This document shows, in pieces, positions 1,000 to 60,730 of a stretch of 60,730 nucleotides of DNA. Origin of the DNA: Chiloscyllium plagiosum. Its lineage: Eukaryota. Location of the stretch: positions 77,940,318-78,001,047 of the forward strand of contig NC_057718.1 of the NCBI RefSeq assembly GCF_004010195.1. Reading direction: 5' to 3'. Numbering within the stretch: the stretch's first letter is position 1; each line of letters begins with the position of its first letter. The notes beneath the pieces were generated by a model, which was given only the letters and a program-made list of their open reading frames with translations, was not told the origin of the DNA and did not search any database. A program made the position numbers and the translations under genes.

Positions 1000-2400
1000 C
1001 CACTATAATGTTCCCTTTTAATTTTTCTCGAACCTGTGCAGAACCAGGAGTCATCTAGCTGCATGCTGCATCTATTGAGCGGAAGTCGTAATGCAAATTT
1101 TTTGTAGTTTGTTCATTAACTACTAGAAGTGTGCATTTATATTTCAGTTACAAGCATCCTACCTGCATATGCCATTTCTTCTCCCATCCTCTTTCTCTTC
1201 CCACTCCACATAATGTTAAGTATTAAAAGTGTGCAATCATATTTTATAATTGCAGGTATTCTACCTACAAAAATAAACGAAACTGTTTGCTTGGCTCAGA
1301 AGTCTGGGGACACCTTTAGTGGTGATGCTGTGATCAAATGCATGCCACTCTTGTGATTCCTCTTGAAATTTGTATTTCAGGTTTTCATGTCGCAGTTGAA
1401 TAAATTGAAGGACTGTTGGGAGCAGCCTGAATCTCCTTAACTACTTCACTCTGATAAACACATTCACCCAAATACTGAGCCTGATTGACCTTGGCCTTTG
1501 CAAATTGCATAGCTTCACTTGTCAAATAGCTTCTCTGCAAGAAGAATTTGCAAAGAGATGCCAGTTTACTGAGAACCCCATTCAGATCTGTCAATACAAT
1601 GCAGTATTGTGGCTTTCTGAGCATCTACAGGTAGTATTTGTTTATTGGGTCATTGCACATAAATTGCTCTCTGCAATACATAGTTTTGCATTAGTATACT
1701 GTGTATGTCAAAATGGCACTGTCACACTGAGACTTTGGAAAGATCTTCAAATTGTCCTTTTTCACGGTTGATCTGCTGAACATTATGCAAAGTCTTAGTT
1801 GTCAATTATGCAAGATATTGAAATACTATGTCCAAATACCATATTCTCAGATTTTCTCAGTAAGCAGCACAGTGCTGTTCCTGAAAATGTTTGATTTGAA
1901 TCATAATATTGTGGCTATTCCATCTGATGTGAATATCACTAACTTCTGTAAATCAAGGTCGTTGTTAACATAAAGTTGCTTGATTGTTATCAGAGTGGAG
2001 GCACTGTCCCAAGCAGTTGTTTCAAAATTCCAGCAAAAAGTCTTGTAAGCAAGTGTAGATTGTTGGTGAAACTTGATGTACAAAATGAAAGTTTTTTTAG
2101 TGTATAAAAATACAGAAATTTCAGCACAATCAATGTATAACTATGCAATTTGAGCAATTCATCCAGGAACTATATGCTGAAGCCTATACACTGTACACAT
2201 TTGAAGGCTTAATTCTTGATGTGCCAGCTCTCAGTAAACTCTGTGTAGTTCACCACATGATCATCAATGCTATACTTGCAGTAAAGTTAAATGCATACAT
2301 GCACAGAAACATGTATGCATTTAACTTTACTACAAGTATAGCATTGAGAGCTTCCACCATATCTGAATCCTCTGTTTCATAACAAGTGAAGATCTTTGAT
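1000..2400 (-). mobile_element. Highly decayed hAT-superfamily (ZNF862/Buster-like) transposase fossil
   Basis: Minus strand reads ...YIKF...DLDLQKLVIFTSDGIATIL (ORF 1901..2083), then after a frameshift QEQHCAAY*ENL (CxxH-like motif). Many stops; boundaries approximate. Confidence 0.5.
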
Positions 2401-8829: not shown

Positions 8830-9338
8830 AGTCATAGTCATGCAGCACGGAAACACACCCTTCGATCCAACCAGTCCCTGCCAAACATAATCCCAAACTA
8901 AACTAGTGCCACCTACCTGTTCCTGGTCCTCCTTTTATATCCCTCCAAACATTTCCTATTTATATACTTATCCAAAGGTATTTTAAACGTTGTAATTGTA
9001 ACCACATCTACCACTTCCTCGAAGATCATTCCACATGTGAACCACAGTTTGTGTAAAAATATCTACCCCTCATACTTTTCTTAAATCTCTCTCTCACCTT
9101 TAATGTGCACCCAGTCTTTCCATCCTAGGAAAAAGACAGCTACACTGAACCCTATGCTATCCTCCTTACCACTGTAATGTCTCCACTCAACCTCCTATGC
9201 TGCTGTGAAAAAAAAACCTAGGCTATCCAGCCTTTCTTTATAACTGAAACCTTCTATATCCAGCAGCATTCTGGTAAATCTCTGCAAAACCGCTTTAGCT
9301 TAATAAAATCTTCCTGTAATTAGGTGACTAGGACTGAA
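8830..9338 (-). mobile_element. Old CR1 LINE 3' end (resumes at about 11884-12160)
   Basis: gagtcatagtcatgcagcacggaaacacacccttcg is the reversed CR1 tail; ends at a VQxWSP-like motif. Confidence 0.75.
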
Positions 9339-9825
9339 CTGAAAATGTGTTGCTGGAAAAGCGCAGCAGGTCAGGCAGCATCCAAGGAACAGGAGAATCA
9401 ACGTTTCGGGCATAAGCCCTTCTTCAGGAATGAGGAAAGTGTGTCCAGCAGGCTAAGATAAAAGGTAGGGAGGAGGGACTTGGGGGAGGGGCTTTGGAAA
9501 TGCGATAGGTGGAGGGAGGTCAAGGTGAGGGTGATAGGCCGGAGTGGGGTGGGGGCGGAGAGGTCAGGAAGAAGATTGCAGGTTAGGAAGGCGGTGCTGA
9601 GTTCGAGGGATTTGACTGAGACAAGGTGGGGGGAGGGGAAATGAGGAAACTGGAGAAATGTGAGTTCATCCCTTGTGGTTGGAGGGTTCCCAGGCAGATG
9701 ATGCGCTCTTCCTCCAACCGTCATGTTGCCATGGTCTGGCGATGGAGGAGACCATGGCAACACGACGGTTGGAGGAAGAGCGCCTCATCTTCTGCCTGGG
9801 AACCCTCCAACCACAAGGGATGAAC
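9339..9825 (-). mobile_element. Penelope-like element 3' portion with hammerhead motif and a fold-back end
   Basis: Terminal repeat as at 18806/57829/58853; minus-strand CTGAAGAAGGGCTTATGCCCGAAACGTT at 9400-9427; ORF C-terminus ...TMATRRLEEERLIFCLGTLQPQGMN; inverted arms 9664-9737 and 9749-9825. Confidence 0.8.
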
Positions 9826-9856
9826 ATGCGGAACCTTTTCTGAAGAAAGACCAAGT

Positions 9857-11880
9857 AGAAGACAACGTTAGATTCGTGAACCGTGGATGACAGGAGAAAT
9901 TGTACGACTAGTCAAGAGGAAAAGGGAAGCATATTTAAGGTCTAGGCAGCTAAGAACAGAACGGTCCCTGGAAGAATATCGGAAGCATTGGACAAATCTT
10001 AAACGAGGAATCAAGTGGGCTAAAAGGGGTCATGAAATAGCTTTAGCGAGCAGTATTAAGGAGAATCCCAAAGCATTGTATTCTTATATAAGAAGCAAAC
10101 AGGTAACTAGAGAAAGGATTGATCCACTAAGGGATAACTAAGGAAGGCTGTGTCTCAAACCTGAGAGAATGGGTGAGTTTCTGAATGATAACTTTGCATC
10201 AGTGTTCACTGGTGAGAGGACCATGATGAATGTTGAGATTCAAGATAGAAGTTTGATTAGTCTGGATCAAGTTGACATAAGTAAGGAAGATGTGTTGGGT
10301 AGGCTAGGGGTTATTCAGGTGGACAAATCCCCAGGACCGGATGGAATCTATCCCAGGTTGCTGAGGGAGGCGAGAAAGGAAATAGCTGGGGCCCTGGCAG
10401 ATATCTTTGTGGCATCCTTAAATGCAGGTGAGGTGCTGGAGGACTGGAGGGTTGCTCATTTTGTCCCCCTGTACAAGAAGGATAGTAGGGATATTCTGGG
10501 TAACTACAGACCAGTGAGCCTTGCGTCGGTGGTGGGAAAATTGCTGGAGAAGGTACTGAGGGATAGGATCTATTTATATTTGGAGAAGAATGGGCTTATC
10601 AATGATAAGCAACATGGTTTTGTGGGGGAGGTTATGCCTTACCAACTTCATAGAGTTCTTCAAGGAAGTGACCAAGTTGATAGATGAAGGAAGGACTGTT
10701 GATGTCATATATGTGGACTTTAGTAAGGCGTTTGATAAGGTTCCCCATGGTAGACTAATGGAGAAAGTGAAGTCATATGGTATGCAGGGTGTTATAGCTA
10801 GGTGGATAAAGAACTGGTTGAGCCACAGGAGACAGTAGAAGTTGAAGGATGTTTCACAAAATGAGAAAGGTGACCAGTGATGTTCCACAGAGGTCAGTGT
10901 TGGGGCCACTGTTGTTTGTAATATACATAAATGATCTGGAAGAGGGCACTGTTGGTATGATCAGCAAGTTTGCAGATGACATGAAGATTGGTGGAGTAGC
11001 AGAAAGCATAAGGGACTGTCAGAGAATACAGGAGGATGTAGATAGACTGGAGAGTTGGGCGGAAAAGTGGCAGATGGATTTCCATCCAGAGAAATGCGAG
11101 GTGATGCATTTAGGCAAGACTAATTCTAAAGTGAATTATACAATGAACGAAAGAGCCTTTGGAAAAGTTGATGGGCAGAGAAATTTGAGTGCGTGTCTAT
11201 TGTACCCTGAAGGTTGCTGCACAGGTGAATAGAGTGGTCAAGAAGGCATATAGTATGCTTGCCTTCATTGGATGGGGTATTGAGCATAAGAACTGGCAAG
11301 TCATGTTAACATTGTACAAGACATTGGTTTGGCCACATTTAGAATACTGTGTACAGTTCTGATCGCCACATTACCAAGCGGATGTGGACGCTTTGGAGAT
11401 GGTGCAGAGAAGGTTTAGGAGGATATTGCCTGGTATGGAAGGTGCTAGCTATGAAGAAAGGTTGAGTAGGTTATGTTTATTTTCATTAGAAAAAAAGGAG
11501 ATTGAGGGGTGACCTGATTGACGTTTATAAAATCATGAAGGGCATAGACAAGGTGGTTAGAACAAGCTTTTTCCCAGGGTGAAGGATTCAATAATGAGAG
11601 ATCACGCTTTCAAGGTGAGAGGTGGAAAGTTTAAGGGGGATACACGCTGTAAGTACTTCACACAGAAGGTGGTGGGCGTTTCGAACACGTTGCCAGCAGA
11701 GGTGGTAGAGGGAGGCACAGTAGATTCATTTAAGATGCATCTGGATAAATGCATGAGTAGGTGGGGAGTAGAGGGATACAGATGCTTAAGAATTGACCGA
11801 CAGGTTTAGACAGTACATTTGGATCGGCTCAGGCTTGGGCTGAAGGGCCTGTTCCTGGGCTATAAATTTTCTTTGTTCTT
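9857..11880 (+). mobile_element. 5'-truncated, relatively young CR1 LINE (frameshifted ORF2)
   Basis: ORFs 10169..10687 (KSPGPDGIYP, NYRPVSL), 10590..10838 (YVDFSKAFDKVPH) and 10849..11232 (VPQRSVLGP, KFADD); 3' tail gaagggcctgttcctgggctat...ttctttgttc. Confidence 0.93.
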
Positions 11881-13789: not shown

Positions 13790-15350
13790 ATTAGCCAGAA
13801 GTGCCGATAGGTGATCCATCTCTTTCCTGTAAGGAGCCCTAGCATTACAGATTTAAGTTTTCAGCTAATTGGGTTCATTCCATATGGTATCATGAAATGA
13901 TTGGAGGTGCTGGATACTGCAGAGGCTCTGGATCCTGACTGTATTATGAGGAGGGAAGGTCATTGGTGAAGCAGCTGATGTTCGGACCTAGAACACTTCC
14001 GAGGAACAGCAATAGCACTGAAGCCTTATGCTGTAGAACTTTCTGCACCCCAAGCCAAGCTGTTCCAATGCAGCTACAACACTGGCATTCACTCAACTGT
14101 GTGGTAAATTTGACCCGGTATGTTCTGTACACTAAACTGGTTAAATCCAATCCAGTTAATTACCATTCCATCGTTTTACTTTTGATCATCAGTAAAGTGA
14201 TGGAAGGTGCCATCAATAGTGCTATCAAGCATCACTTTCTTAGCAATAACTTGCTCACTGATGCCAATTTGGGTTCTGTCATGGCCACCTATCTCCTGAC
14301 CTCACCTCACAGCCAAGGACAAACATGGACAAAAGTGGTAATTCCAGAGGTGAGGTGAGTGTGGTATTGAGGAGTCCAAGTGAAACAACTCGGGAATCAG
14401 GATGAAAACTTTCTGCTTTTTGTAGTTGTACTTGATGTAATTGAGATGGTATGGTCATTGGAGTTCAGTAACGGGGCATATCTGCAGGAGTTCCTCGGAA
14501 GTGTTCTAGGTCCGAACATCAGCTGTTTCACCAATGACCTTCCCTCCTCATAATATCAGAAGTGGGGATGTTCAGCATCATTCTCAACTCTTCAGATACT
14601 GAAGCAGCCGCGTCCAAATGTAGCAAGGCCTGAACAAACGGCTGGACTTAGGCTGAAAAGTAGCAAGTAACATTTGCACCACATAAATTACCATCTCCAG
14701 CAAGAATGAATCTAGCACCTGTCCCTTGAATTCAATGGTTTTACCGTCACTGAATCCTCAACTATCAACATCCTGGGGGTTACCATTGGCAGAAAATGAA
14801 CCAGGCTAGCCATCTAAATACAATGGCTACAAGAGCAGGTCAGAGACTAGGAATCCTGCAGCAAGTAATCATCTCCTGACTACCCAAAATCCTGTCCTCC
14901 ACCTACAAAGCACAAATCAGGCGTATGATGGAATTCTGTCCACTCGTGTGGATAAGCGCATCTCCAAAAATACTTGAAGCATGGCACCGTCCAGGACACA
15001 GCACGCTTGTTTGGCAATACACCCATAGCAACAGTGTATTCCATCTCCAAGATGCACTACAGAAATTCACCAAGGCTTCTCAGTACCTTCTATACTCACA
15101 GTCACATCTACAGGGACAAGGGAGGCAGATATATGGAAACACCACCACATCCAAGTTCCCTGCCAGGCCATAGCTTGGAAATATATTTGGCTCAAAATCT
15201 TGGAACTACCTCCTTAACAACATTGTGGTTCTACCTACAGTCAGTGATTCAACAAAGCAGCTCACTGCCATCATCTCAAGGGCACCTAGGGGTGGGCAAT
15301 AAATACTAGCCTAACCAGTGACACTCTTATCTCTTAAATGAATTGTAAAA
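13790..15350 (+). mobile_element. Decayed CR1-clade LINE RT and 3' end
   Basis: ORF 13963..14358 KSNPVNYHSIVLLLIISKVMEG; GVPxGSVLGP-like at about 14487; tail gggcaataaatactagcctaaccagtgacac. Confidence 0.75.
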
Positions 15351-18613: not shown

Positions 18614-19218
18614 AAAATTATGTTGAAATATTTAACTGCAGGCATTTGACACAGACAGTAAATTAATGTTAGTATTTCAGTTTTGAATAATGATTGAATA
18701 GAAGGTGGATAGGAAACGTTTGAAATGGAAAGATTGTATACTTATCTGATAAAATGAAATTACTGTACGAAAAACAAAATAATAGCCTGGTTGCTGTCTT
18801 TGTTAAGAAAGTGAGGTCTGCAGATGCTGGAGATCAGAGCTGAAAATGTCGCTGGAAAAGCGCAGCAGGTCAGGCAGCATCCAGGGAACAGGAGAATCGA
18901 CGTTTCGGGCATAAGCCCTTCTTCAGAAACGTCGATTCTCCTGTTCCCTGGATGCTGCCTGACCTGCTGCGCTTTTCCAGCGACATTTTCAGCTCTGATC
19001 TCCAGCATCTGCAGACCTCACTTTCTTAACAAAGACAGCAACCAGGCTATTATTTTGTTTTTCGTACAGTAATTTCATTTTATCAGATAAGTATACAATC
19101 TTTCCATTTCAAACGTTTCCTATCCACCTTCTATTCAATCATTATTCAAAACTGAAATACTAACATTAATTTACTGTCTGTGTCAAATGCCTGCAGTTAA
19201 ATATTTCAACATAATTTT
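18614..19218. repeat. Perfect 293-bp inverted repeat, 19-nt spacer
   Basis: 18614-18906 is the reverse complement of 18926-19218 with no mismatch found by eye; mirrored ORFs 18824..19072(+) and 18760..19008(-). Confidence 0.97.
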
Positions 19219-19385
19219 ATTGCCCTCCCCAATGTGATTTTTTTTGGTGGCCTCTAGACAATACAGAGAGACGACGGCTTCTTAGAATTCCTAATTTCCA
19301 CCCTGATGTTGTCCTTGAATACCAGAGCAACACCATCTCCCTTCCTTCCTGTCTGCCCTTCCTTTTCCAGCAACACATTTTCAGC
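18806..19385. mobile_element. Rearranged Penelope terminal mini-element with 14-bp TSD
   Basis: TGCTGTCTTTGTTA at 18792-18805 and 19386-19399; PLE terminal sequence at 18806-18925 and 19362-19385. Confidence 0.8.
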
Positions 19386-19689
19386 TGCTGTCTTTGTTAT
19401 AATGACAAGGTTTGTATTTTTAGGTGTGAATTGATGTAAGGGGCTGATGGTGGTGGAGCAAGGGCCCAAGGGAGAGGATGCAGGAGGTATCATGTGATCT
19501 AGATTAACCCAGTTCATTGGTTGAGTAGACTGTTGGTCAGGAATGTTCATGTACTAGATTGGCTATTTTGCCAACTACCAGAAGAGGCCAACCATCCTGA
19601 ATTGACAGGCGATCATTGACCAGGGAGTGCCAAATTCCCCAGTCCCTCCTTTCTGCCTCATCGTTTGTTACATTTCTTGGTATTGTGAA

Positions 19690-22650
19690 GGTGTGCACTT
19701 TTTTCAGACCTGGCTGGAGAGTGTGTTTTGGAACAGGAGGGACCTGTACCGATGGGGCAGTCTCTACCGGAACTGATTTGGAACCGGAGTTCTAGTGAAA
19801 AGGATAAATAGGGTGGTCACTAGGACTATAAACTAGAGGAAAAGACAGGAAGTATGATGATAAGTAAAAAGGTAAGCAGCAGGTTAGCATGTGTGCAGGA
19901 GGGTTTAAGTACAAGGCAGAAGTAAAAAAGGAAGGATAACTCAGGAGATATTATTAGGATGGTCACAACTGGAAGTTAAATATCCAGGGGGTAGTCTTGT
20001 ATTAGGAAGGGCAGACAGGAAGGAAGGGAGATGGTGTTGCTCTGGTATTCAAGGACAACATCAGGGTGGAAATTAGGAATTCTAAGAAGCCGTCGTCTCT
20101 CTGTATTGTCTAGAGGCCACCAAAAAAATATCACATTGGGGAGGGCAATAAACAAAGAAATAACTAATGTCTGTAAAAATGATGTGGCAGTTATGGGGGA
20201 TTTTGATGTACATGTCAATTAGTCGAGCCAGCTCGGTCAGAGTAGCCTTAAGAGTTTGTTGAGTGTATTCGCAATAGTTTTCTTTAACAGTATGTAATGG
20301 AACCGACGAGGGAGCAAGCTATCCTAGATCTGGTCCTGTGCAGTGAGACAGGAATAATTAATGACCTCATAGTTAGGGATCCACTTGGAAGGAGCGATCA
20401 TAATATGGTTGAATTTAGAAAATAGATGGAGAGTGTGAAGATAAAATGCAATACCAGGGTTTTGTGCTTAAACACGGGAGACTACAATAAGATTAGGGAG
20501 GACTTAAGTAGACTGGGAACAAAGATTTTATGTGGGATAGTTGACGAGCAGTGGAGGACTTTCAAAGCAATGTTGCAAAGTGCTCAGCTAAAGTATATTC
20601 CAGTGAAAAGGAAGGACTGTAAGAAAAGGGTCATCTGCCATGGGTGTCTAAGAAATAAGGGAGGCTGTCAAAATGAAAGAGAAGGCATTCAAAGTAGCCA
20701 AGATCAGCGGGAAACTAGAAGATTGGGAAAATTTTAAAGGTCAACAGAAAGTTATAAAAAGAGCTATAAAGAAAAGTAAAAGAGAACATGAGGAAAAACT
20801 AGCACAGAATGTAAAGACAGATAGCAAAAGTTTCTATAAATGTATAAAATGAAAAAGAGTAGCTAAATTAAACGTTAGTCCTTCAGAGGATGAGAGCGGG
20901 CATATAATTATGGGATGTACTGAAATGACCGAGGCATTGAATAAGTATTTTGTTCGTCTTCACAGTGGAGACTAGTAACATGCCAGTAATTGACAGAGAC
21001 TAAGGTAGTTGAGGACCTAGAAACAATCATTATTATAGAAAAGGTAGTGTTGGGCAAGTTAATGAAGCTAAGGATAGACAAGTCCCCTGGCCCTGATGGA
21101 ATGCATCCCAGGGTATTAAGAGATGGTCCGAGAAATAGCAAGTGCACTTGTGGTAATTTTGCAAAACTCGCTGGACTCTGGGGCAGTTCCAGCAGATTGG
21201 AAAGCAGCAAAGGACCAGATCTAGGATAGCTTGCTCCCTCGCCGGTTCCATTACATTTAAAAAGGGAGTTAGACAAAAGATGAAGAATTATATATTGGTT
21301 AGCTTAACTCTTATAGTGGGAAAATGCTTGAGTCTGTTATAAAGGAAGAAATAGCAAGGCATCTAGATAGAAATTGTCCTGTTGGACATTTGCAGCATGG
21401 ATTCACGAAGGACAGGTCATGCTTAACTAATCTTTTGGAATTCTATGAAGACATTACGAGCAAGGTGGACAAAAGGAACCCAGTAGATGTGGTGTACCTA
21501 GATTTCCAAAAGGCCTTCAACAAGGTGCCACACAAGGGGACTGCTGCTTAAGATAAAGATGCATGGCATTATGGGTGAAGTATTAGCGTGGATAGAGGAT
21601 TAGTTGACTAACTGGAAGCAAACATTGGGGAAAGATGAGTGCTATTCTGGTTGGCAATCAAACTACTGGTGTGTCTCAGGGATCAGTGTTGGGACTGCAA
21701 TTATTCACAATTTATATAGATGATTTGGAGTTGGGGACCTTGTGTAGAGAATCAAAGTTTGCAAGTGACACTAAGGTAAGTTGCAGAGCAAAGTGTGCAG
21801 AAGATTGAGAAACTTTGCAGAGGAACATTGATATTTTAAGTGAATGAGCAATGGTCTGGCAGATGGAATGTAATGTTAATAAATGTGAAGTCATCCATTT
21901 TAGTTGGAGTAACAGTAAAAACGATTATTACTTGGTTAAAAAGTTGCAGAATGCTGCTATGCAGAGGGACCTGGATGTCATTGTGCATGAATCAGAGGGT
22001 GGTCTGCAGGTACAAGTAATTAGAAAGACAAATGGAATTTAGTCCTTCATTGCTAAAGGGATTGAGTTGAAAAGCAGGGAGGTTATGTTGCAGCTGTACA
22101 GGGTGCTGGTGAGACCACACCTGGAGCATTGCGTACAGTTTTGGTCTCCTTACTTGAGAAAGGATTTCCTGCACTAGAGGTGCAGAGAAAGGTCACTGGG
22201 TTGATTCTGGAGTTGAGGGTGTTGGCTTATGAGAAGACACTGAGTAGACTGGGATTATATTAATTGGATTTTAGAAGAGTGAGTGGGGATCTTATGGAGA
22301 CATATAAAATTATGAAGGGAATAGATAACGTATACGTAGAGAGGATGTTTTAACTAGGGCAAGAGGGCATAGCCTCAAAATTAGAGGGAGCAGATTTAGG
22401 ACTGAATTGAGAAGGAACTTCACCCAGAGGGTTGTAAATCTATGGAATTCCCTGCCCAGTGAAGTAGTTGACACTGTTTCAATAAATGTTTTTAAAGCTA
22501 AGAGACATTTTTGAACAATAAAAGAATTAAGGGATACGGTGAGAGGGCGGGTAAGTGGAGCTGAGTCCATGAAAAGTTCAGCCATGATCTTATTGAATGG
22601 CAGAGTAGGCTCAAAGAGCCAGAGGGCTTACTTCTCCTTGTTCTTAGGTA
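19690..22650 (+). mobile_element. Long decayed CR1 LINE (ORF1 end, ORF2, 3' UTR)
   Basis: ORF1 esterase-like end about 19730-19836; MGDF; EPTREQAILDLVLC at about 20300; KSPGPDGMHPRVL; YLDFQKAFNKVPH; CR1 3' tail. Confidence 0.88.
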
Positions 22651-31929: not shown

Positions 31930-33960
31930 AGATAAGGCTCAAGAATTGCATAATGGTCAGCCAGAAGTTCCAAGAAGAATATCCATCTCTGCTTCCTCTA
32001 GAGGTACATGCATTACAGATGCTAGTCTTCAGCCAGTTTGATTCTCTCCACTTGCTATCTCTCAAAAATTGGAGGCACTACATACAGCAAAGACTATGGG
32101 CCCTTACCCACGCCAGTTACAGGCTCTGCCCCTACTCCCAGCTCCACACCCACACCGGGTCCCAGTTCCCAGCCCTGCCGAGTTTTCACCATTCCTCCAG
32201 ACCTCCCCCTCACTGAGGATGAACGATCAGTCCTCAGCAAAGGGCTCATCTTCATCCCCCTCCGCCCACGCATCAATGAATTTAATACACGCCGTGACGT
32301 CGAACACTTCTTTCGCCGCCTGCGGGCCTACTTTTACAATCAGGACTCCCGCCCACCTTCCGAGGACCCCTTCGTCCGCCTCCCACACACTCCATGCACC
32401 TGGACACCCCGTGCTGGCCTATTACCCGTCCTTGATCTCTTCATTTCCAATTGCCGCCGGGAGATTAACTGCCTCAACCTGTCTACCCCTCTCCCCCATT
32501 CCAACCTCACAACGCACAGCCCTCCACTCACTCTGCTCCAATCCCGACCTCGCCACCAAGCCAGCGGATAAAGGTGTTGCAGTGGTAGTCTGGCACACTG
32601 ACCTCTACATCGCTGAAGCCAGATGCCAATGCGAAGACACCACCTCCTACCGCCCCCCTCAACCATGACCCCATCACCAAGCCATCACCTCCCAGACCAT
32701 ACAGAACCTCATCACCTTAGGAGATCTCCCACCCACAGCTTCCAACCTCATAGTCCGGGAGCCCCACACTGCCCGGTTCTACCTCCTTCCCAAGATCCAC
32801 AAGCCTGGCCAACCCATTGTCTCAGCATGCTCCTGCTCCACTGAACTCATCTCTACCAACCATCTTCAGCAGCTTCATAATGACTCCACACGCTTGAAAA
32901 ATTAGAAGTATGGACCTTTGTGCAATCAGCAATGTTCAGCACCATTTAGGATTTGGATACAGAAGCAGTCTGTGTCCAAATGCAACAAGACCAGGATAGT
33001 GAGGAGTCATTATGAAGCTGCTGAAGACGGTTGGGCCTAGGACACTCCCTTGAGGAACTTCTGCAGAGCTGTTCTGTCACTGAGATGACTTACCTCCAAC
33101 AACCACAAACATCTTCCTTTGTGTCAGATAGGACTCCAAATTGTGGAGCATTTTCCCTTAATTCCCATTGACTCCAGTTTTGCAAGGGTTCTATATTACC
33201 ATATTCAGTCAAATTAAGCACTGATGCCAAAAGCTGTAACTCTCACCCTCACCTCTGGAATTTAGCTCTTGTATGAAAAGTGGACAGTAATGTGTGCTAC
33301 ATAAATGCCAGTCAATGACCATCTTCAATAAGAGACTGCCCCTTAACATTCAATGGTGTTACCATCACCGATTCCCTCTTTATAAACATCCTGGGGGTTA
33401 CTATTGACCAGAAGGGCAACTGGGCTAGTCATATAAATACAAAGGCTACAAGAGCAGGTCAGAGACTAGGAATACTGTACTGGGTAACTCACCACCTGAC
33501 TTTCCAAAGCCTGTCCACCATCTAAATGCACGAGTCAGGAATGTCATGGAGTACTTGAAGGGTCTGTTTCTATGCTGTACGCGTCTATGATTCTATTCCC
33601 CATTTGCATGGACAAGTGCAGCTCCAACAACACTTACGAAGCTTGATGCCATTCAGGGCAAAGCTGTCCACTTGTTTGGCAGTGCATTCACATGCATTCA
33701 CTCCCTTCACGACTAATGCTCAGTAGCAGAAGTGTGTTCCATCTACAAAATGCACTACAGAAATTCACCAAGAATCTTTAGACACACTTTCCAGATCCCC
33801 GATGATCACCACCATCTCGGTGGACAAGTGCAATAGATACATGGTGATACTGCCAACTTCAAGTTCCCCGGCAATTGCCATTCCTTCAAAATTACTTGGT
33901 CAAAATCCTGGAATCTCTTTCCAAACAGCATCTACCTACAATGTATCACTGGATCAGACT
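31930..33960 (+). mobile_element. Decayed CR1-clade LINE (same family as 13790-15350), interrupted and partly inverted
   Basis: Colinear similarity with the 13790-15350 copy at 31955-32045, 32856-33000 and 33270-33950; 33003-33270 is inverted; a 39-bp CR1 tail is inserted at 33557-33595. Confidence 0.7.
32046..32855 (+). mobile_element. Penelope-like ORF fragment (N-terminal domain and start of RT), inserted in a CR1-clade LINE
   Basis: LPLTEDERSVLSKGLIFIP...FFRRLRAYF; KPADKGVAVVVW; RFYLLPKIHK...PIVS (PLE RT motifs), frameshifted. Confidence 0.88.
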
Positions 33961-39079: not shown

Positions 39080-39321
39080 GTCTAGATTTAGAGTGGTGCT
39101 GGAAAAGCACAGCAGTTCAGGCAGCATCCGAGGAGCAGTAAAATCGACGTTTCGGGCAAAAGCCCTTCATCAGGAATACATTGTGCTGTATTCCTGATGA
39201 AGGGCTTTTGCCCGAAACGTCGATTTTACTGCTCCTCAGATGCTGCCTGAACTGTGCTTTTCCAGCACCACTCTAATCTAGACTCTGGTTTCCAGCATCT
39301 GCAGTCATTGTTTTTACCTAG
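39080..39321. mobile_element. Palindromic Penelope terminal mini-element with 14-bp TSD
   Basis: TTGAAAGAATAATA at 39066-39079 and 39322-39335; arms 39079-39180 and 39187-39284, 6-nt spacer TTGTGC. Confidence 0.9.
39190..39225 (+). ncRNA. Minimal type I hammerhead ribozyme motif (PLE-type); antisense twin at 39146-39173
   Basis: attc-CTGATGA-A-GGGC-TTTT-GCCC-GAAAC-GTC-gatt: conserved core boxes, 4-bp stem II, palindromic ACGT stem III, GUC site (cleavage predicted after 39221). Activity untested. Confidence 0.65.
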
Positions 39322-42287: not shown

Positions 42288-42862
42288 TAGAACATAGAAC
42301 ATAGAAGAATACAGCGCAGTACAGGCCCTTCGGCCCTCGATGTTGCACCGATCCAAGCCCACCTAACCTACACTAGCCCACTATCCTCCATATGCCTATC
42401 CAATGCCCGCTTAAATGCCCATAATGAGGGAGAGTCCACCACTGCTACTGGCAGGGCATTCCATGAACTCACGACTCGCTGAGTAAAGAACCTACCCCTA
42501 ACATCTGTCCTATACCTACCCCCCCTTAANNNNNNNNNNNNNNNNNNNNNNNNNNNNNNNNNNNNNNNNNNNNNNNNNNNNNNNNNNNNNNNNNNNNNNN
42601 NNNNNNNNNNNNNNNNNNNNNNNNNNNNNNNNNNNNNNNNNNNNNNNNNNNNNNNNNNNNNNNNNNNNNNNNNNNNNNNNNNNNNNNNNNNNNNNNNNNN
42701 NNNNNNNNNNNTTTGCCATCAACTACTACCCTCTGTCTTCTTCCAGCCAGCCAACTCCTAATCCAAACCTCCAACTCACCCTCAATGCCATACCTCCGTA
42801 TTTTTTGCAGTAGTCTACCATGGGGAACCTTATCAAATGCCTTACTAAAATCCATATACATC
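42288..42862 (-). mobile_element. Young CR1 LINE 3' part spanning the assembly gap
   Basis: tagaacatagaacatagaa reversed tail; ORF 42526..42990(-) YMDFSKAFDKVPHGRLL. Confidence 0.88.
42530..42711. other. Assembly gap (182 N)
   Basis: Run of n. Confidence 1.
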
Positions 42863-48930: not shown

Positions 48931-49349
48931 AGAAAAGGTTGTTGGTGATATACTGGTTCTACAGATTTCTGCTTTAAATTATGGTGTCTGTGATACTTTT
49001 TTCTAAAATTTACATGGGGTACAAAAGTCTCAAAAAAGTGCCTGACGTTAGCTTCATTGGAATTTATTTTGTTCAACTTATTTTCATGTCATATTATCAA
49101 TCCCACATTTTTTTCAGATTATAAATATCATTAGTAATTGGAATTTAAAATATTAAATATTGGTGTTAATTTTATGGATGTAACACTTGTTTTGTTCGCA
49201 GTTCAAATAAGTTAAAGCATAGTCATACAGCATGGAAACAGGCTCCTTGGCCCAAACCATCCTTGTCCACCAGCTTTCCTAAACTGAATTAGTCCCATTT
49301 ATGTGTATTTGACCCATGTCCCTCTAAACCTTTCCTATTCATGTACCTG

Positions 49350-49460
49350 AAGGGCTTATGCCTGAACCATTGATCCTCCTTGGATGCTGCCTGACCACCT
49401 GAGCTTTTCCAGCATCACATATTCGACTCTGATCTCCAGCATCTGCAGTCCTCACTTTCT
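49350..49460 (+). mobile_element. Penelope terminal fragment with 16-bp TSD inside a CR1 3' end (about 49217-49720, minus)
   Basis: CCTATTCATGTACCTG 49334-49349 and CCTATCCATGTACCTG 49461-49476; insert begins within a decayed hammerhead motif. Confidence 0.8.
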
Positions 49461-56079: not shown

Positions 56080-58672
56080 TCAAGAAAAGTTTGCCAAAAT
56101 TAAGTTTGAAGGTAAACTATCAAGAAATATAATGAAAGACGGCAAGAGCTTCTTCGAATGTATAAAAGTGAAGAGGCAGACCAAAATGAGTATAAGCTCC
56201 TGAGGGAATGAGGCTGAGGAAATAGTAATGGGGAAATCAGTAAATGGCAAAGGAGATGAATAAATATTTTGCATCAGTCTTCATGATGGAAGACACTATT
56301 GTAATGAAGTTAAACTTAATTACGTAGTCATGAGGACAGACCTGACCCGAATGGGCTAGGCAGGAAGACTTAACAGGTATGTCACTGACAAATGTTTAAG
56401 GAGATACTTGATTGCTTCCAAGTAAAATATATTTCAGAAAAGAAGAAAGATTGTAAGAGGGGAATGGGAAGGCACCTGTATCTAAATAAAGAAGTTAAAG
56501 ATAATATGAAGACAAAATCTATATCACAAAGGCAAGTGGCAAGCTGGAGAATTGGAAACTTTTAAATCTCACCGAACGGTTTCTTTAAGAAGTCATAAAA
56601 AGGGAAATGCTAAAATGGGAGAAAACTGATTGATAGCAAAAGCTTCTGTTGGCCCCTTGGAAGGTGTGACTGAGGAGTTAACAGGGGGGAACACATGGCA
56701 AACTTAAAATATTGATTTAGCTTTCACAGTTGAGTACAATAGTACCATGCCTATAGGAGCAGGTAATGCAGAGATTTTAGAAAGGGAGGAACAATAGTCA
56801 TCAGGGGTAAATACAGAGCAATCTTTTGGAATTGAACGCAAACAAGACACCAGGGCCTGTTGGCCTTTATCCCAGGGACATAAAGGAGGTGGCAGTAGAG
56901 ATAGTGTCTCTGTTGACTTATAATATTCCAAAATTTGCTGAATGCTGATAAGGTTCCAGTGGATTTTTTAAAAAAAAACTAATATTGGAAAGAGGTTATG
57001 AAAATTGAAAGGGTTCAGTGCAGATCTACGAGGATGTTACCAGGGTTCGAAAATTTGAGCTATAGGGAGAGGTTGAATTGGCTTGTGCTGTTTTCTCTGG
57101 AGTGTTTAGGGCTGACCTCTGATGTTTATAAAATCACGAGGGGCATGGATAGGGTAAATAGACAAGGTCTTTTATTCAGGGTGGGGGAATCCAAAACTAG
57201 AGGGCATGGGCTTAGGGTGAGGGCGCCTTTAAAAGGGACATAAGGAGCAACTTCACACAGGGTGCTATGTGTATGGAATGAGCTGCTGGAAGAAGTGGTG
57301 GAGACTGGTACAATTAGAACATTTAAAAGGCATCTGGATGGGTATATGAATAGGAAGGGTTTACAGGAATATGAGCCAAATGCTGGCAAATGGGACTAGA
57401 TTAAACTAGAATGTCTGGTCAGTATGGATGGGTTGGACTGAAGGGTCTGTTTCCATGCTGAAGGGTCTGTTTCCAAAAAGCCAAAGACCGAAGTTAGAAA
57501 ACTATCGACCAATTAGTTTAACGTGTATAGTTAAGAAATTGTTAGAATTCTATACAGAGGAAGCAGTAACAAGGCATTTGGAAAGTCATAAAAACAATCC
57601 ATCAAAGTCAGCATGGTTTTATGAAGGTTAAATCATGTTTGACTAATTTGTGAGAGTTCTTTAAAGATTTAAGGAGTAATATGGATAATGGGGTTCCTGT
57701 GGATGTATATCTGTGTTTCCAGAAGGCAGCTGATAAGATGACGCACAAAAGGTTAATACATAAGGGGTTCAGATAATTTTCTGGTTGTCAAGACAACTGG
57801 TGGGGTGCAACTGGGTTCTATTTTTGGGGAGAAAGTGAAGTCTGCAGATGCTGGAGATCAGAGCTGAAAATGTGTTGCTGGAACAGCGCAGCAGGTCAGG
57901 CAGCAATTCTATTTTTGGGCCCTAATTATTTACAATCTATATTCATGGCATGGATATGGGGATAGAAAATGCTTTAGCAGAATTTGCAGATGACACTAAA
58001 GTAGTTGGGAATGTAAGTTGCAATGAAGAAATAAGAAATTTACAAATGGATATGGAAAAGCTAGCTGAATGGGCCAAAGTTCAGTGGTTGAAATTTAAAC
58101 GGATGAATGAAGTTAAAGGCATTTGTGTGACTGCACCTGAAATATCTCATAGTTTTGGTGCCCTTACTTGAGGGATGTATAGTATTAGAGGTAGTTCAGA
58201 GGAAAGCTGCTAGACTGATTCTAGAGATAAGGGGCTTATCTTGAGAGATTAAGCATTTTAGGCCTATACTCTCAAGTTCAGAAGAATGAGAGGAGTTCAG
58301 ATTTAAGGCTTACTAAAATGCTAAAGGTTATTGACAAAATAGTTATAGAAAACAAGTTCTTTTGAGGAGGGGGTGATCTAGGACGAGAGGACACAGCTCT
58401 AAGATAGGGGGTAACAGATTTAAAATAGCTGAAGTTGCTTCTCTCATGTTGTAAATCTATGGAATTCACTGCCTCAGAGTGTGTTGAATGCTGGTTCATT
58501 AAAATCTGTGCATGTCCTCCTCAAGTTTACTCAAGTAATAAAGGGATGAGGGGCTATGGAGCATGGGCAAGTAAGTGGGGTCGAGTCCAAGATTAGATCA
58601 GACATGATCGTATAAAATGGCAAAGAAGGTTTGAAGGGCTGAATTGCCTCCTCCTGCTCCTAGTTACGTTCT
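56080..58672 (+). mobile_element. Nested decayed CR1 LINEs (younger 3' fragment at about 56985-57475 inside an older copy)
   Basis: ORF 56998..57243 IERVQCRSTRMLPG; ENYRPISLT at about 57500; EFADDTK at about 57980; tail ending about 58672. Confidence 0.8.
57829..57906 (-). mobile_element. Penelope terminal fragment with 13-bp TSD
   Basis: TTCTATTTTTGGG at 57816-57828 and 57907-57919; insert gagaaagtgaagtctgcagatgctggagatcagagctg.... Confidence 0.85.
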
Positions 58673-58675
58673 TAG

Positions 58676-60730
58676 TTTTTTTAATAGATTTTTTATTGAA
58701 AATTTAACATTTTTACAAGTTTACAAATTTAAAAAAATCCCCAAGTATAAACATTGATATACAATTAAATCTTAAATAATAACCAAAATTTGTCAAACAA
58801 AAAAAAAGATAGCGAGAGAGAAAAAAACAAAACTCAACTAACTACCAATCTAGTGCAGCAGGTCAGGCAGCATCCAAGGAGCAGGAGAATCGATGTTTCG
58901 GACATGAGCTCTTCAGGAAACGAAACGTCGATTCTCCTGCTCCTTGGATGCTGCCTGACCTGCGCTTTTCCAGCAACACATTTTCAGCTCTGATCTCCAG
59001 CATCTGCAGTCCTCACTTTCTCCTAACTACTAATCTAACCTACAACTAACCAAAGTGTATTAATTAAGTCTCTTACATTATTCAAAGAAGAGTAGTGAGA
59101 TACGTGCTCAGAATGTATTAACATCAAATCGTAACAAAACCCGTATTCGTGTAGGATACCTCTCCCAAGGGGCCCCGGACCAGCCAGGTTCGCCATCTCC
59201 ATTAAATAAAAGCCCTTGTTAGGATGGCCAAAATATCTGTATTTATGTAATTCAAGAAGGGCTGCCCTATTTTATCGAATAATGCGGTCTTTTGGTGCAC
59301 CATATTTGTAAGGAAGTCAAGGGGAATACATTCCATGATTAATCTGTGCCAATTCGAAAGTCCAGGACCGTCAGCCACCCAGTTTACCAAAATATTTTTC
59401 CTTGCACAGAAAGAGAGAATAGAAAATAATCTCTTCCCAGTCATATCCAGGGAGAGTAAGTTCGAAAAGCCCAAAAGGAGAGGTACAGGGTGTCCTCTAA
59501 TTTCCGTTCCTAAGATTTCTGTCAGAGCACTTGCTACTTTAGTCCAATATGTACAGATCTTATGACAGGTCCATAAGCAACATACGAGAGTGTCCACCTC
59601 TATTTTACATTTGGGACCCATTGGAGATGCTCCTGCCTTACATTTTGCCAATCGGTCCGGTGCTATATGGGCCCTATGAAGTATCTTCAACTGAATGGCC
59701 TGAGTTCTGTTGCAGATGGTGATTCTTCTGATGTTTTCCCAAATGTCATTCCACGTTTTTATAGAGATTTCCAGTCCCAAATCCTGATCCCATGTTTTAA
59801 GCAGATTGTCCATATCTCTGGATACTTCATCATGTAATAAATGATAAATAGTGCTGACAGAAGATACCCCCATTGGCCATAGCACTCTTATGTTCTCTAT
59901 CTGATTTATAAAGACTATCTAATAACGTAGTCGCCTTCTGTATATAATCTCGAATTTGGAAATATTGAAAGAGGTCTCCATTAGGTAATCCAAATTTCTG
60001 AGACAGCTGTTCAAAAGATATCAGGACCCCTTCTTTAAACAGATCCCCTAAACATGAGATACCCCTGGATCTCCAGAGTTTGAAAGTGGCATCTGTAAGC
60101 CCCGGTTGAAATCCCCCTGCTCCCACTATCTGGGCATAGGGGGATGTTTTATGTGAGTTGCCCTCATTTTGCCGCACTATATTCCAAGCTTTAATTGTGT
60201 TTAGTATTATAGGGTTTTTACATTGATTCGTAATGATTTTCCTCTTGTCTGAAAATAAAAGGTTAATAAGTGGGCATTTTACTTGAGAAGCCTCGATGTC
60301 CAGCCAGATTGATTGCGGGTCAGACAAGACCCAATTGGCTATGTAACGTAATAGGGAACTTAACTGATATTTCCTAAAATCTGGGAAATCCAATCTTCCC
60401 CTTGCCTGTGGAAGCTGTAGCTTCTTCAGCTTAATGAGGGACCGTATATGATTCCAGATAAAGGAATCCAACCAGCCATATAATTTACGTAGTGCCAACC
60501 TCGGCAGCACCACGGGAAGCATTCTCATAGGGTATAGGAGACAGGACAGACATTCATTTTAATTAGTGCTATTCTACCTAGCAGGAAATTGGCAGGTCTC
60601 CCCATTGCTGGAGGTCCTGCCTTATCCTTTTCAGTAAATGCACAAAGTTAGCCTTGTATAACTAACCAAATACTGGGGTAATAAAAATGCCTAAATATAA
60701 GAAACCCTCCAGGGACCACCGAAAGGGAAA
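58676..60730 (-). mobile_element. L1-clade LINE, 3' part of ORF2 and 3' UTR (continues beyond window)
   Basis: ORFs 59830..60528(-) SFIWN...LQLPQARGRLDFPDF and 59202..59885(-) QLKILHR...GPKC...CCLWTC (decayed CCHC knuckle) overlap with a frameshift; AATAAA and A-rich end on minus strand at about 58676-58698. Confidence 0.88.
58853..59022. mobile_element. Palindromic Penelope terminal mini-element with 15-bp TSD inside the L1 3' UTR
   Basis: CTAACTACCAATCTA 58838-58852 and CTAACTACTAATCTA 59023-59037; arms meet at a decayed hammerhead motif (about 58900-58930). Confidence 0.85.

What the first reader, a model, noticed from the sequence alone, without database searches (positions are those of the whole stretch)
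18614..20152. Two-step composite: palindromic Penelope mini-element that seeded a double template switch
Seen, in order: TSD (18792-18805); PLE terminus (18806-18925) ending in a minus-strand hammerhead core; a perfect inverted copy of 18614-18906 running through the element and TSD and 178 bp into unique flank; a TTT microhomology switch to an inverted copy of downstream CR1 sequence (19216-19363 = reverse complement of 20004-20152, one 1-bp indel); a CT microhomology return to a PLE stub (19362-19385); second TSD (19386-19399). Both long arms share a private variant (AAAATGTCGCTGG), while the stub keeps the family form (AAAATGTGTTGCTGG). Inference: the stub is the remnant of the original right arm, and a later break at the hairpin was repaired by FoSTeS/MMBIR-like copying of nearby DNA. 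PLE palindromes may therefore be fragile sites that duplicate host sequence.
Basis: partly seen in the sequence, partly recalled or inferred. Interest (0 to 1): 0.75.

Follow-up and report, generated by a model that had tools for sequence, protein, structure and literature searches.

The report
Penelope hairpin copied its neighbouring DNA
A small hairpin-shaped jumping-gene insertion in a shark-like genome carries backwards copies of two pieces of neighbouring DNA in some individuals but apparently not in another, which suggests a copying error made after the element landed: a real but single example of a known kind of DNA rearrangement.

Summary
The structure is there as described: a 14-bp TSD, a 120-bp Penelope-like (PLE) 3' end, a perfect 293-bp inverted copy running 178 bp into unique flank, a 148-bp inverted copy of LINE DNA from about 0.8 kb downstream, a 24-bp PLE stub and the second TSD.

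It is not an assembly artefact. Public contigs (4 runs) give an apparent allele series. A related species has the empty site. Samples S2 and S8 (two studies) branch exactly at 19218, and S8 holds the flank-to-LINE junction with its 1-bp deletion. Sample S1 has both outer PLE junctions but single depth and no branch, so probably a simple palindrome; its interior was not seen.

Best reading (0.6): a canonical 'inverted arm plus tail' PLE insertion of about 190 bp, later expanded by 390 bp through three template switches (arm homology, TTT, CT). Main rival (0.3): everything was made during insertion, as described for L1, and S1's allele is a later deletion. The claim that PLE palindromes are fragile sites is untested, and PLE-free inverted copies lie in the same window. 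Known kind of event on a new substrate; moderate-to-low interest.

The parts
18614..18791 (+). Unique left flank (178 bp, 28% GC), donor of the first inverted copy
   Evidence: single-copy depth in X1 and X5
18792..18805 (+). Target-site duplication, copy 1 (14 bp)
   Evidence: present once at the empty site in species B (X5 contig 25)
18806..18925 (-). Full arm: 3' end of a Penelope-like element, element sense on the minus strand, 3' end at 18806
   Evidence: the same terminus at 9336-9430 continues into the C-terminal motif of RT + GIY-YIG proteins
18806..18837 (-). 32-nt 'tail', present at this end of the original insertion and absent at the stub end
   Evidence: 30-40-bp tail described in PMC8557442, PMC3846280, PMC11167929
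18899..18926 (-). Minimal hammerhead core (CUGAAGA, stem II, GAAAC-GUC); upstream stem I strand missing
   Evidence: sequence and fold; no Rfam hammerhead among 14 matches; PMC4209133
18907..18925 (.). 19-nt spacer of the palindrome; centre joined by 1-nt microhomology (G18926)
18926..19026 (+). Right arm: exact inverted copy of 18806-18906, with the same TGTCGC variant
19027..19040 (-). Inverted third copy of the TSD
   Evidence: I11
19041..19218 (-). Inverted copy of the left flank 18614-18791
   Evidence: double depth in X4, contigs of X4 and X15 end at 19218
19216..19363 (-). Inverted copy of 20004-20152 with a 1-bp deletion at 19237/8; TTT microhomology at its start, CT at its end
   Evidence: X15 contig 10 (19189-19267, 0 differences, 0 gaps)
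19362..19385 (+). PLE stub in family form, outer end of the original short arm
   Evidence: joined to TSD and flank in X1, X4 and X15
19386..19399 (+). Target-site duplication, copy 2
20004..20152 (+). Donor of the second inverted copy, inside a decayed LINE ORF2 (the CR1 label is recalled from motifs, not tested by clade)
   Evidence: repeat-level depth at 19277-19350

Best explanation
Two steps. Step 1 (structure shown, enzymology inferred): after the split from species B, a PLE protein nicked both strands 13-14 bp apart and primed cDNA from each nick. This left a full arm with a 32-nt tail and a shorter inverted arm, joined head to head at the hammerhead, about 190 bp between TSDs. Step 2 (inferred): on one haplotype, a DNA polymerase crossing this roughly 70-bp imperfect hairpin left its template. 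It used the arm-to-arm homology to copy back through the full arm, the TSD and 178 bp of flank, jumped via TTT to LINE DNA about 0.64-0.79 kb beyond the stub (same strand), copied 148 bp with one slip in a T run, and returned via CT to about where it left. The same path can be read in the opposite direction. Net gain 390 bp, no flank lost. Whether a stalled fork or a break started it cannot be told.
For:: empty site with one TSD in species B (X5 contig 25). PLE-TSD-flank joins at both ends in 3 of 3 same-species samples, with no break at either TSD. Duplication in 2 of 3: X4 contig 18 ends at 19218 with depth 28.4 against 14 next door; X15 contigs 9-11 meet at 19218 and 19238 with 30-nt overlaps. 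No sign of it in X1: an 825-nt contig runs through 19218 and does not continue into the LINE copy; depths 7.86 and 8.31 against 8.42 expected without duplication, 9.4 and 11.3 if heterozygous, 10.4 and 14.3 if homozygous; the LINE piece has the uncopied form. The copies are young: 0 substitutions in 441 columns, 95% bound 0.68%, against 33 of 814 (4.1%) between window and species B. Left arm and stub differ by a 2-nt gap and one substitution, while the new arm is identical to the left arm. The return point lies where the bulged, 43%-GC base of the stem meets the 67%-GC part. Both copied pieces come from one strand within 0.8 kb. Microhomologies of 3 and 2 nt fall in the 1-9 nt range of PMC11293582.
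Against: S1's interior was never seen: contigs break inside the high-copy PLE, so the simple allele is inferred from outer junctions, depth and an absence, and contigs can drop variants. Direction is not fixed: a deletion between the direct repeats at 18972 and 19362 gives the same simple allele, and long palindromes are unstable (10.1101/2023.09.19.558550). The age test is weak: at 0.2-0.8% divergence, P(0 substitutions) is 0.41-0.03, and conversion could homogenise the arms. L1 makes 52-220-bp fold-back duplications and <250-bp templated insertions at insertion time (PMC10191854; 10.1101/2024.08.27.596794). X15 contig 10 has 30 letters left of the junction, one short of the tool's 31-letter mark for a bridge. 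X15 depths are uneven (10 versus 30). The CT junction and the centre are unbridged.
Confidence: 0.6

Rival explanations
1. One event. During insertion the first cDNA, covalently joined to the left flank, folded back on itself and was extended through the TSD into the flank. It then borrowed nearby LINE DNA and was sealed to a short second cDNA (the stub) primed from the other nick. S1's allele is then a later 390-bp deletion between direct repeats, or an effect of contig simplification.
For: A PLE protein nicks and extends both strands (PMC11167929). L1 fold-back duplications of 52-220 bp occur in 0.3-0.4% of somatic insertions (PMC10191854), and 22 templated insertions were found among about 3,600 solo L1s. 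All foreign DNA here lies between the full arm and the stub with TSDs intact. Three unchecked notes report 85-236-bp local captures inside PLE insertions of this genome. Two templates or an RT slip would explain the arm/stub difference.
Against: It needs a second rare event to explain S1, and that deletion would have to use the 10-bp repeat rather than trim the palindrome centre. No empty allele was seen in 3 of 3 samples, so the insertion looks older than the polymorphic duplication, whose copies show 0 substitutions in 441 columns.
Confidence: 0.3
2. The flank fold-back and the LINE copy are two separate later accidents. The genome makes local inverted templated insertions anyway, and one fell beside the hairpin.
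For: Two PLE-free inverted copies lie in this 60-kb window (21207-21256, 13942-14007), each replacing a few codons of a LINE ORF; one has its donor 140 bp from this locus's donor.
Against: The two copied pieces are directly joined by a TTT overlap, come from the same strand and are equally undiverged. X15 holds them joined, and no listed contig shows one without the other.
Confidence: 0.07
3. Fold-back read chimera or misassembly.
For: Perfect 293-bp arms; the window differs from all 4 runs at 19449, so the consensus may hold errors; S1 lacks the junction; two internal junctions are unbridged.
Against: Two samples from two studies branch at exactly 19218; one holds the junction with the same 1-bp deletion, the other shows 2.03-fold depth.
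Confidence: 0.03

Closest known systems
Insertions of endonuclease-bearing Penelope-like elements with inverted pLTR and 30-40-bp tail (PMC8557442, PMC3846280, PMC11167929; minimal hammerheads PMC4209133)
   Same: Head-to-head arms, one 32 nt longer, 14-bp TSD, minimal hammerhead core; PMC3846280 also mentions unrelated sequence captured between pLTRs inside TSDs.
   Different: The passages read describe no arm that runs through its own TSD into flank and no alleles with and without the captured DNA.
Inverted-repeat-initiated template switching: DUP-TRP/INV-DUP (Grochowski et al. 2024, PMC11293582) and FoSTeS/MMBIR templated insertions
   Same: First switch within an inverted repeat pair, later junctions with 2-3-nt microhomology and an extra templated piece; inverted Alus can serve as the repeat pair in humans.
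   Different: About 400 bp rather than gene-scale; arms 19 nt apart, not tens of kb; three switches returning to the departure site; no duplication-triplication pattern.
L1 insertion-time fold-back inversions and templated insertions (PMC10191854; 10.1101/2024.08.27.596794; PMC11702581)
   Same: Inverted duplication of target flank of similar size (192 bp against 52-220 bp) and short local templates inside a TSD-bounded retroelement insertion.
   Different: Different element class. Here the copied flank lies on the full arm's 3' side and is reached through the arm; one template is 0.6-0.8 kb away rather than within 15 bp; a duplication-free allele seems to exist.
Fold-back inverted duplications at yeast DSBs (Yu et al. 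2024, PMC11724301) and ODIRA (10.1101/2023.09.19.558550)
   Same: Fold-back or leading-to-lagging switching at a short inverted repeat yields an inverted copy of adjacent DNA.
   Different: Yeast DSB fold-backs are mostly 5-34 bp; ODIRA yields origin-containing inverted triplications. Neither product matches in size or layout.

Membership tests
EN+ Penelope-like element insertion | Terminus belongs to an element encoding RT plus C-terminal GIY-YIG endonuclease | tested here: met
   5 of 6 long homologs of ORF fragment 32042-32665 hit both RVT_1 and GIY-YIG (several below curated cut-off). An HMM of their C-termini finds 9664-9840(+) at E 1.9e-5 and 9586-9720(-) at E 0.01 among 2043 segments; the latter runs on into the same terminus at 9336-9430. 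Indirect and weakly scored.
EN+ Penelope-like element insertion | Minimal hammerhead core in the pLTR | tested here: met
   CUGAAGA - stem II - GAAAC-GUC on the minus strand 18926-18899. Fold z-score -0.18, no Rfam hammerhead hit, upstream stem I missing; activity untested.
EN+ Penelope-like element insertion | Inverted truncated copy with a 30-40-bp tail at one end only | tested here: met
   The full arm is 32 nt longer than the stub end.
EN+ Penelope-like element insertion | TSD with an empty orthologous site | tested here: met
   14/14 TSD; single copy in species B. TSDs of 13-17 bp at 5 of 6 window insertions tested.
EN+ Penelope-like element insertion | Clade (Penelope/Poseidon, Neptune, Nematis) | not tested
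   No tree was built.
FoSTeS/MMBIR-type templated insertion | Several nearby templates joined by short microhomology | tested here: met
   TTT and CT; joint chance about 0.01 (0.059 x 0.17); templates within 0.8 kb.
FoSTeS/MMBIR-type templated insertion | Error-prone synthesis near a junction (criterion recalled, from no call) | tested here: met
   1-bp deletion about 20 nt past the TTT junction, present in X15 contig 10 and absent from the donor form in X1.
FoSTeS/MMBIR-type templated insertion | Arises on an existing chromosome after the insertion (parental allele without the copy) | tested here: inconclusive
   S1 probably carries such an allele; interior unseen and direction unproven.
FoSTeS/MMBIR-type templated insertion | Started by a stalled fork or a single-ended break | not testable with these tools
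   The product is the same either way.
DUP-TRP/INV-DUP | Inverted triplication embedded in duplications, two junctions | tested here: not met
   Two separate inverted duplications and three switches; only the 14-bp TSD and about 24 bp of arm are present three times. Works like it at the first switch; not a member.
Insertion-time fold-back (L1 type) | Flank duplication of about 50-220 bp inside the insertion | tested here: met
   192 bp (178 flank + 14 TSD) against PMC10191854.
Insertion-time fold-back (L1 type) | Duplication born with the insertion, so no duplication-free inserted allele | tested here: inconclusive
   S1 argues against it unless its allele is a later deletion.

The most novel reading that the evidence does not exclude
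The mass of short hairpins that Penelope-like elements leave in shark genomes act long after insertion as template-switch seeds that copy nearby host DNA into themselves. Much of the 'host capture by PLEs' read as an insertion by-product would then be post-insertional, and PLE hairpins would be a steady source of small inverted duplications, with segregating empty/simple/complex allele series as a natural assay.
Probability: 0.15. Interest if true: 0.6.

Novelty: new member of a known kind. Interest (0 to 1): 0.33.

Why it matters
How PLE inverted ends form, and when foreign DNA enters them, is described as unresolved (PMC8557442, PMC11167929). A locus with an empty relative, a probable simple allele and a complex allele can time the capture directly with one PCR or long-read set and a haplotype tree. 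If capture follows insertion here and at the similar loci noted in this genome, PLE hairpins would join inverted Alus and low-copy repeats as substrates for template switching, at very high density. As it stands it is one non-coding structural variant with no shown effect.

Tried and rejected
Whole-genome screen: no genome is held for this window. A 32-nt PLE motif found 0 loci in viral, prokaryote-genome and metagenome contigs, so enrichment stays untested. Rfam: 14 matches, all below gathering score, 11 of them microRNA hairpin models; no hammerhead; rejected as generic hairpin hits. Direct Pfam scan of window PLE fragments: 0 families for 3 of 3. The word-seeded protein search returned 1 hit, an uncharacterised bamboo-shark protein without Pfam domains. 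In one search, joints 18967-18973 to 19362-19365 look like the simple allele but occur in all 4 runs, including the species with the empty site, so they come from other family copies and were not counted; 119 joints, 905 loose ends and 101,794 pieces were not shown. The coverage hole in X4 at 19240-19276 (about 84% of the run read) is no evidence. Only 18907-20003 was laid, so the left arm, the upstream flank and the copy at 21207 were not examined in reads. Earlier-finding look-ups by words, sequence and nearness returned nothing. Paper searches joining Penelope with inverted duplication/flanking/template switch or templated/foldback gave 0; two searches listed nothing on the point by title or abstract start. 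Hammerhead cleavage as the cause of the centre was set aside: the centre (18925/6) lies 27 nt from the predicted cut (18898/9).
Full report
OBSERVATION. All stated features are present. The inverted repeat 18614-18906 / 18926-19218 is perfect over 293 bp with a 19-nt spacer. 19216-19363 is the reverse complement of 20004-20152 with one 1-bp gap (E 1e-69). The 14-bp TSD occurs at 18792 and 19386 and inverted at 19027. Junction overlaps are G (centre), TTT, CT and T; chance for >=3 and >=2 nt is 0.059 and 0.17. The 178-bp flank is unique in the window. The TGTCGC variant is on both long arms and in 0 of 6 other informative window copies (ten rows aligned, three from this locus, one too short to cover the site).

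WHAT THE ELEMENT IS. The same terminus at 9336-9430 continues on the minus strand into a frame ending in the C-terminal motif of RT + GIY-YIG proteins. 5 of 6 long homologs of the window's ORF fragment at 32042-32665 carry both Pfam domains. A profile of their last 110 residues picks 9664-9840(+) (E 1.9e-5) and 9586-9720(-) (E 0.01) as the top 2 of 2043 segments. So the element's sense is the minus strand of the left arm, its 3' end is at 18806, and the left arm is what a first cDNA primed at 18805 would be (inference from TPRT). A minimal hammerhead core lies at 18926-18899 (motif class in PMC4209133, passages). The stub ends 32 nt short of the full arm, the 30-40-bp 'tail' of PLE insertions with an inverted truncated copy (PMC8557442, passages; PMC3846280, passages). 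Frangieh et al. (PMC11167929, parts 1-2 of 4 read) show that a PLE protein nicks and extends both strands and starts reverse transcription at two sites separated by the tail. TSDs of 13-17 bp flank 5 of 6 window insertions tested. The genome is shark-like (one search hit; notes).

READS. One search listed 23 runs; four were laid on 18907-20003 at 90% likeness, all as contigs. Species B (X5): one 427-nt contig passes from the right flank through a single TSD into the left flank, the empty site. Sample S8 (X15, study P7): a contig ends exactly at 19218, a 79-nt contig 19189-19267 matches with 0 differences and 0 gaps (so it includes the 1-bp deletion), and the next starts at 19238. The 30-nt overlaps are what a 31-mer graph gives at a true branch, though 30 is one short of the tool's bridging mark. 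Its depth is about 0.42 of the donor form, compatible with a heterozygote, but depths in this run are uneven. Sample S2 (X4, study P1): the 19005-19218 contig also stops at 19218 at 2.03 times the neighbouring depth. Sample S1 (X1, study P1): the corresponding contig is 825 nt, runs through 19218 into sequence that is not the LINE copy, at depth 7.86; the LINE contig has the donor form at 8.31; the single-copy neighbour is at 8.42. Expected values are 9.4 and 11.3 for a heterozygote and 10.4 and 14.3 for a homozygote. All three same-species samples join PLE to TSD to flank at both ends without a break (21-30 PLE letters on the short side), so no empty allele was seen. S1 therefore has at least one haplotype with the insertion but without the duplication, unless its contigs dropped junctions. 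Not seen: S1's interior, the CT junction and the locus's own centre. The substitution part of the 'private' variant may be shared by up to 3-6% of family depth.

AGE. The window differs from species B at 33 of 814 aligned positions (4.1%); the copies differ from their donors at 0 of 441 (95% bound 0.68%, 17% of that distance). Same-species contigs differ from the window at 1-2 of about 450 positions. If the insertion is fixed it should be at least that old, and 0 substitutions has P 0.41-0.03 for 0.2-0.8% divergence: weak support that the duplication is younger than the insertion.

MECHANISM. Best reading (0.6): a canonical insertion of about 190 bp (18806-18971 plus 19362-19385), then one synthesis tract with three switches adding 390 bp. 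The first switch has 46-56 bp of arm homology available, so the departure point is undefined within 18926-18981 and the hairpin tip need not have broken. Centres at this position recur in the family (extra-G variant in all 4 runs, table 4; window 58915-58925). Both copied pieces come from the same strand, one on each side of the element, which fits a nascent strand moving to the lagging template or folding on itself (inference; compare ODIRA, 10.1101/2023.09.19.558550, passages). The return point lies where the bulged base of the original stem (stub against left arm about -23 kcal/mol, -36 for the copied arm) meets its 67%-GC part, a plausible stall point in one direction of travel (speculative). 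Rival (0.3): all at insertion. L1 precedents exist: fold-back duplications of 52-220 bp in 3 + 1 cases, 0.3% + 0.1% (PMC10191854, passages); 22 templated insertions, usually under 250 bp and within 15 bp of the site (10.1101/2024.08.27.596794, passages and section 4 part 1 of 2); hairpin formation by cDNA self-annealing (PMC11702581, passages). S1's allele would then be a later deletion between the 10-bp repeats at 18972 and 19362.

FRAGILE-SITE CLAIM. Untested genome-wide. In the window, 1 of 4 PLE palindromes (18806, 39080, 58852, 9664) extends into flank. Of 9 local inverted matches (>=25 nt, >=88%, <5 kb), 2 belong to this locus, 3 to other PLE copies, 1 abuts a PLE ORF fragment, and 3 show no PLE terminus at their ends. 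Two of these three are templated copies that replace a few codons of a LINE ORF. So there is a PLE-free background. On the other side, three unchecked notes from this genome describe local DNA from 0.7-1.3 kb away inside PLE insertions, which hints at recurrence but not at timing.

COMPARISON AND NOVELTY. It works like inverted-repeat-initiated, microhomology-resolved template switching (PMC11293582, passages; PMC11724301, abstract and outline) but fails the DUP-TRP/INV-DUP layout. The host element meets the PLE tests. Searches for this combination in PLEs found nothing (0 papers; listings only; 10.64898/2026.07.22.740005, passages, not on the point). The library lacks most subscription papers, and figures and supplements of the L1 and PLE papers were not seen and may show such cases. 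Verdict: real, polymorphic, a new member of a known kind; interest 0.33, mainly for the allele series.

Noticed in passing
window 21207-21256 (donor 20292-20341): 50-bp inverted copy (96%) inside the same LINE, replacing about five codons of its ORF relative to the homolog at 10142-10684; donor 140 bp from this finding's donor; no PLE at its junctions.
   Followed up: partly
window 13942-14007 (donor 14490-14555): 66-bp inverted copy (98.5%) inserted in frame in a decayed LINE ORF with loss of a few codons; no PLE end within about 4 kb.
   Followed up: partly
window 32856-32891 (donor 32999-33034): 36-bp inverted copy (94%) exactly where the PLE ORF fragment 32026-32854 stops and another LINE begins.
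   Followed up: no
window 39080-39320, 58852-59023, 57830-57905, 49349-49460: Simple PLE-end insertions with 13-17-bp TSDs; the first two are palindromes with different centres, and in both, one arm lacks 3 nt just after GAAAAGC.
   Followed up: partly
window 9336-9830: Longer PLE 3' fragment with the ORF's C-terminal motif and a 166-bp palindrome (89%) at its truncation point; no TSD found.
   Followed up: partly
window 2264-2347: 84-bp imperfect palindrome (88%) unrelated to the PLE terminus; origin unknown.
   Followed up: no
window 19449 (and possibly 19835): The window's base differs from all four runs laid, including the related species: a private variant or a consensus error.
   Followed up: no
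window 59205-60558 (minus strand): Two long open stretches (238 and 242 codons) that look by eye like the C-terminal region of an L1/Tx1-type ORF2 (label recalled, not tested).
   Followed up: no
window 42530-42711: Assembly gap of 182 N inside a LINE RT fragment.
   Followed up: no
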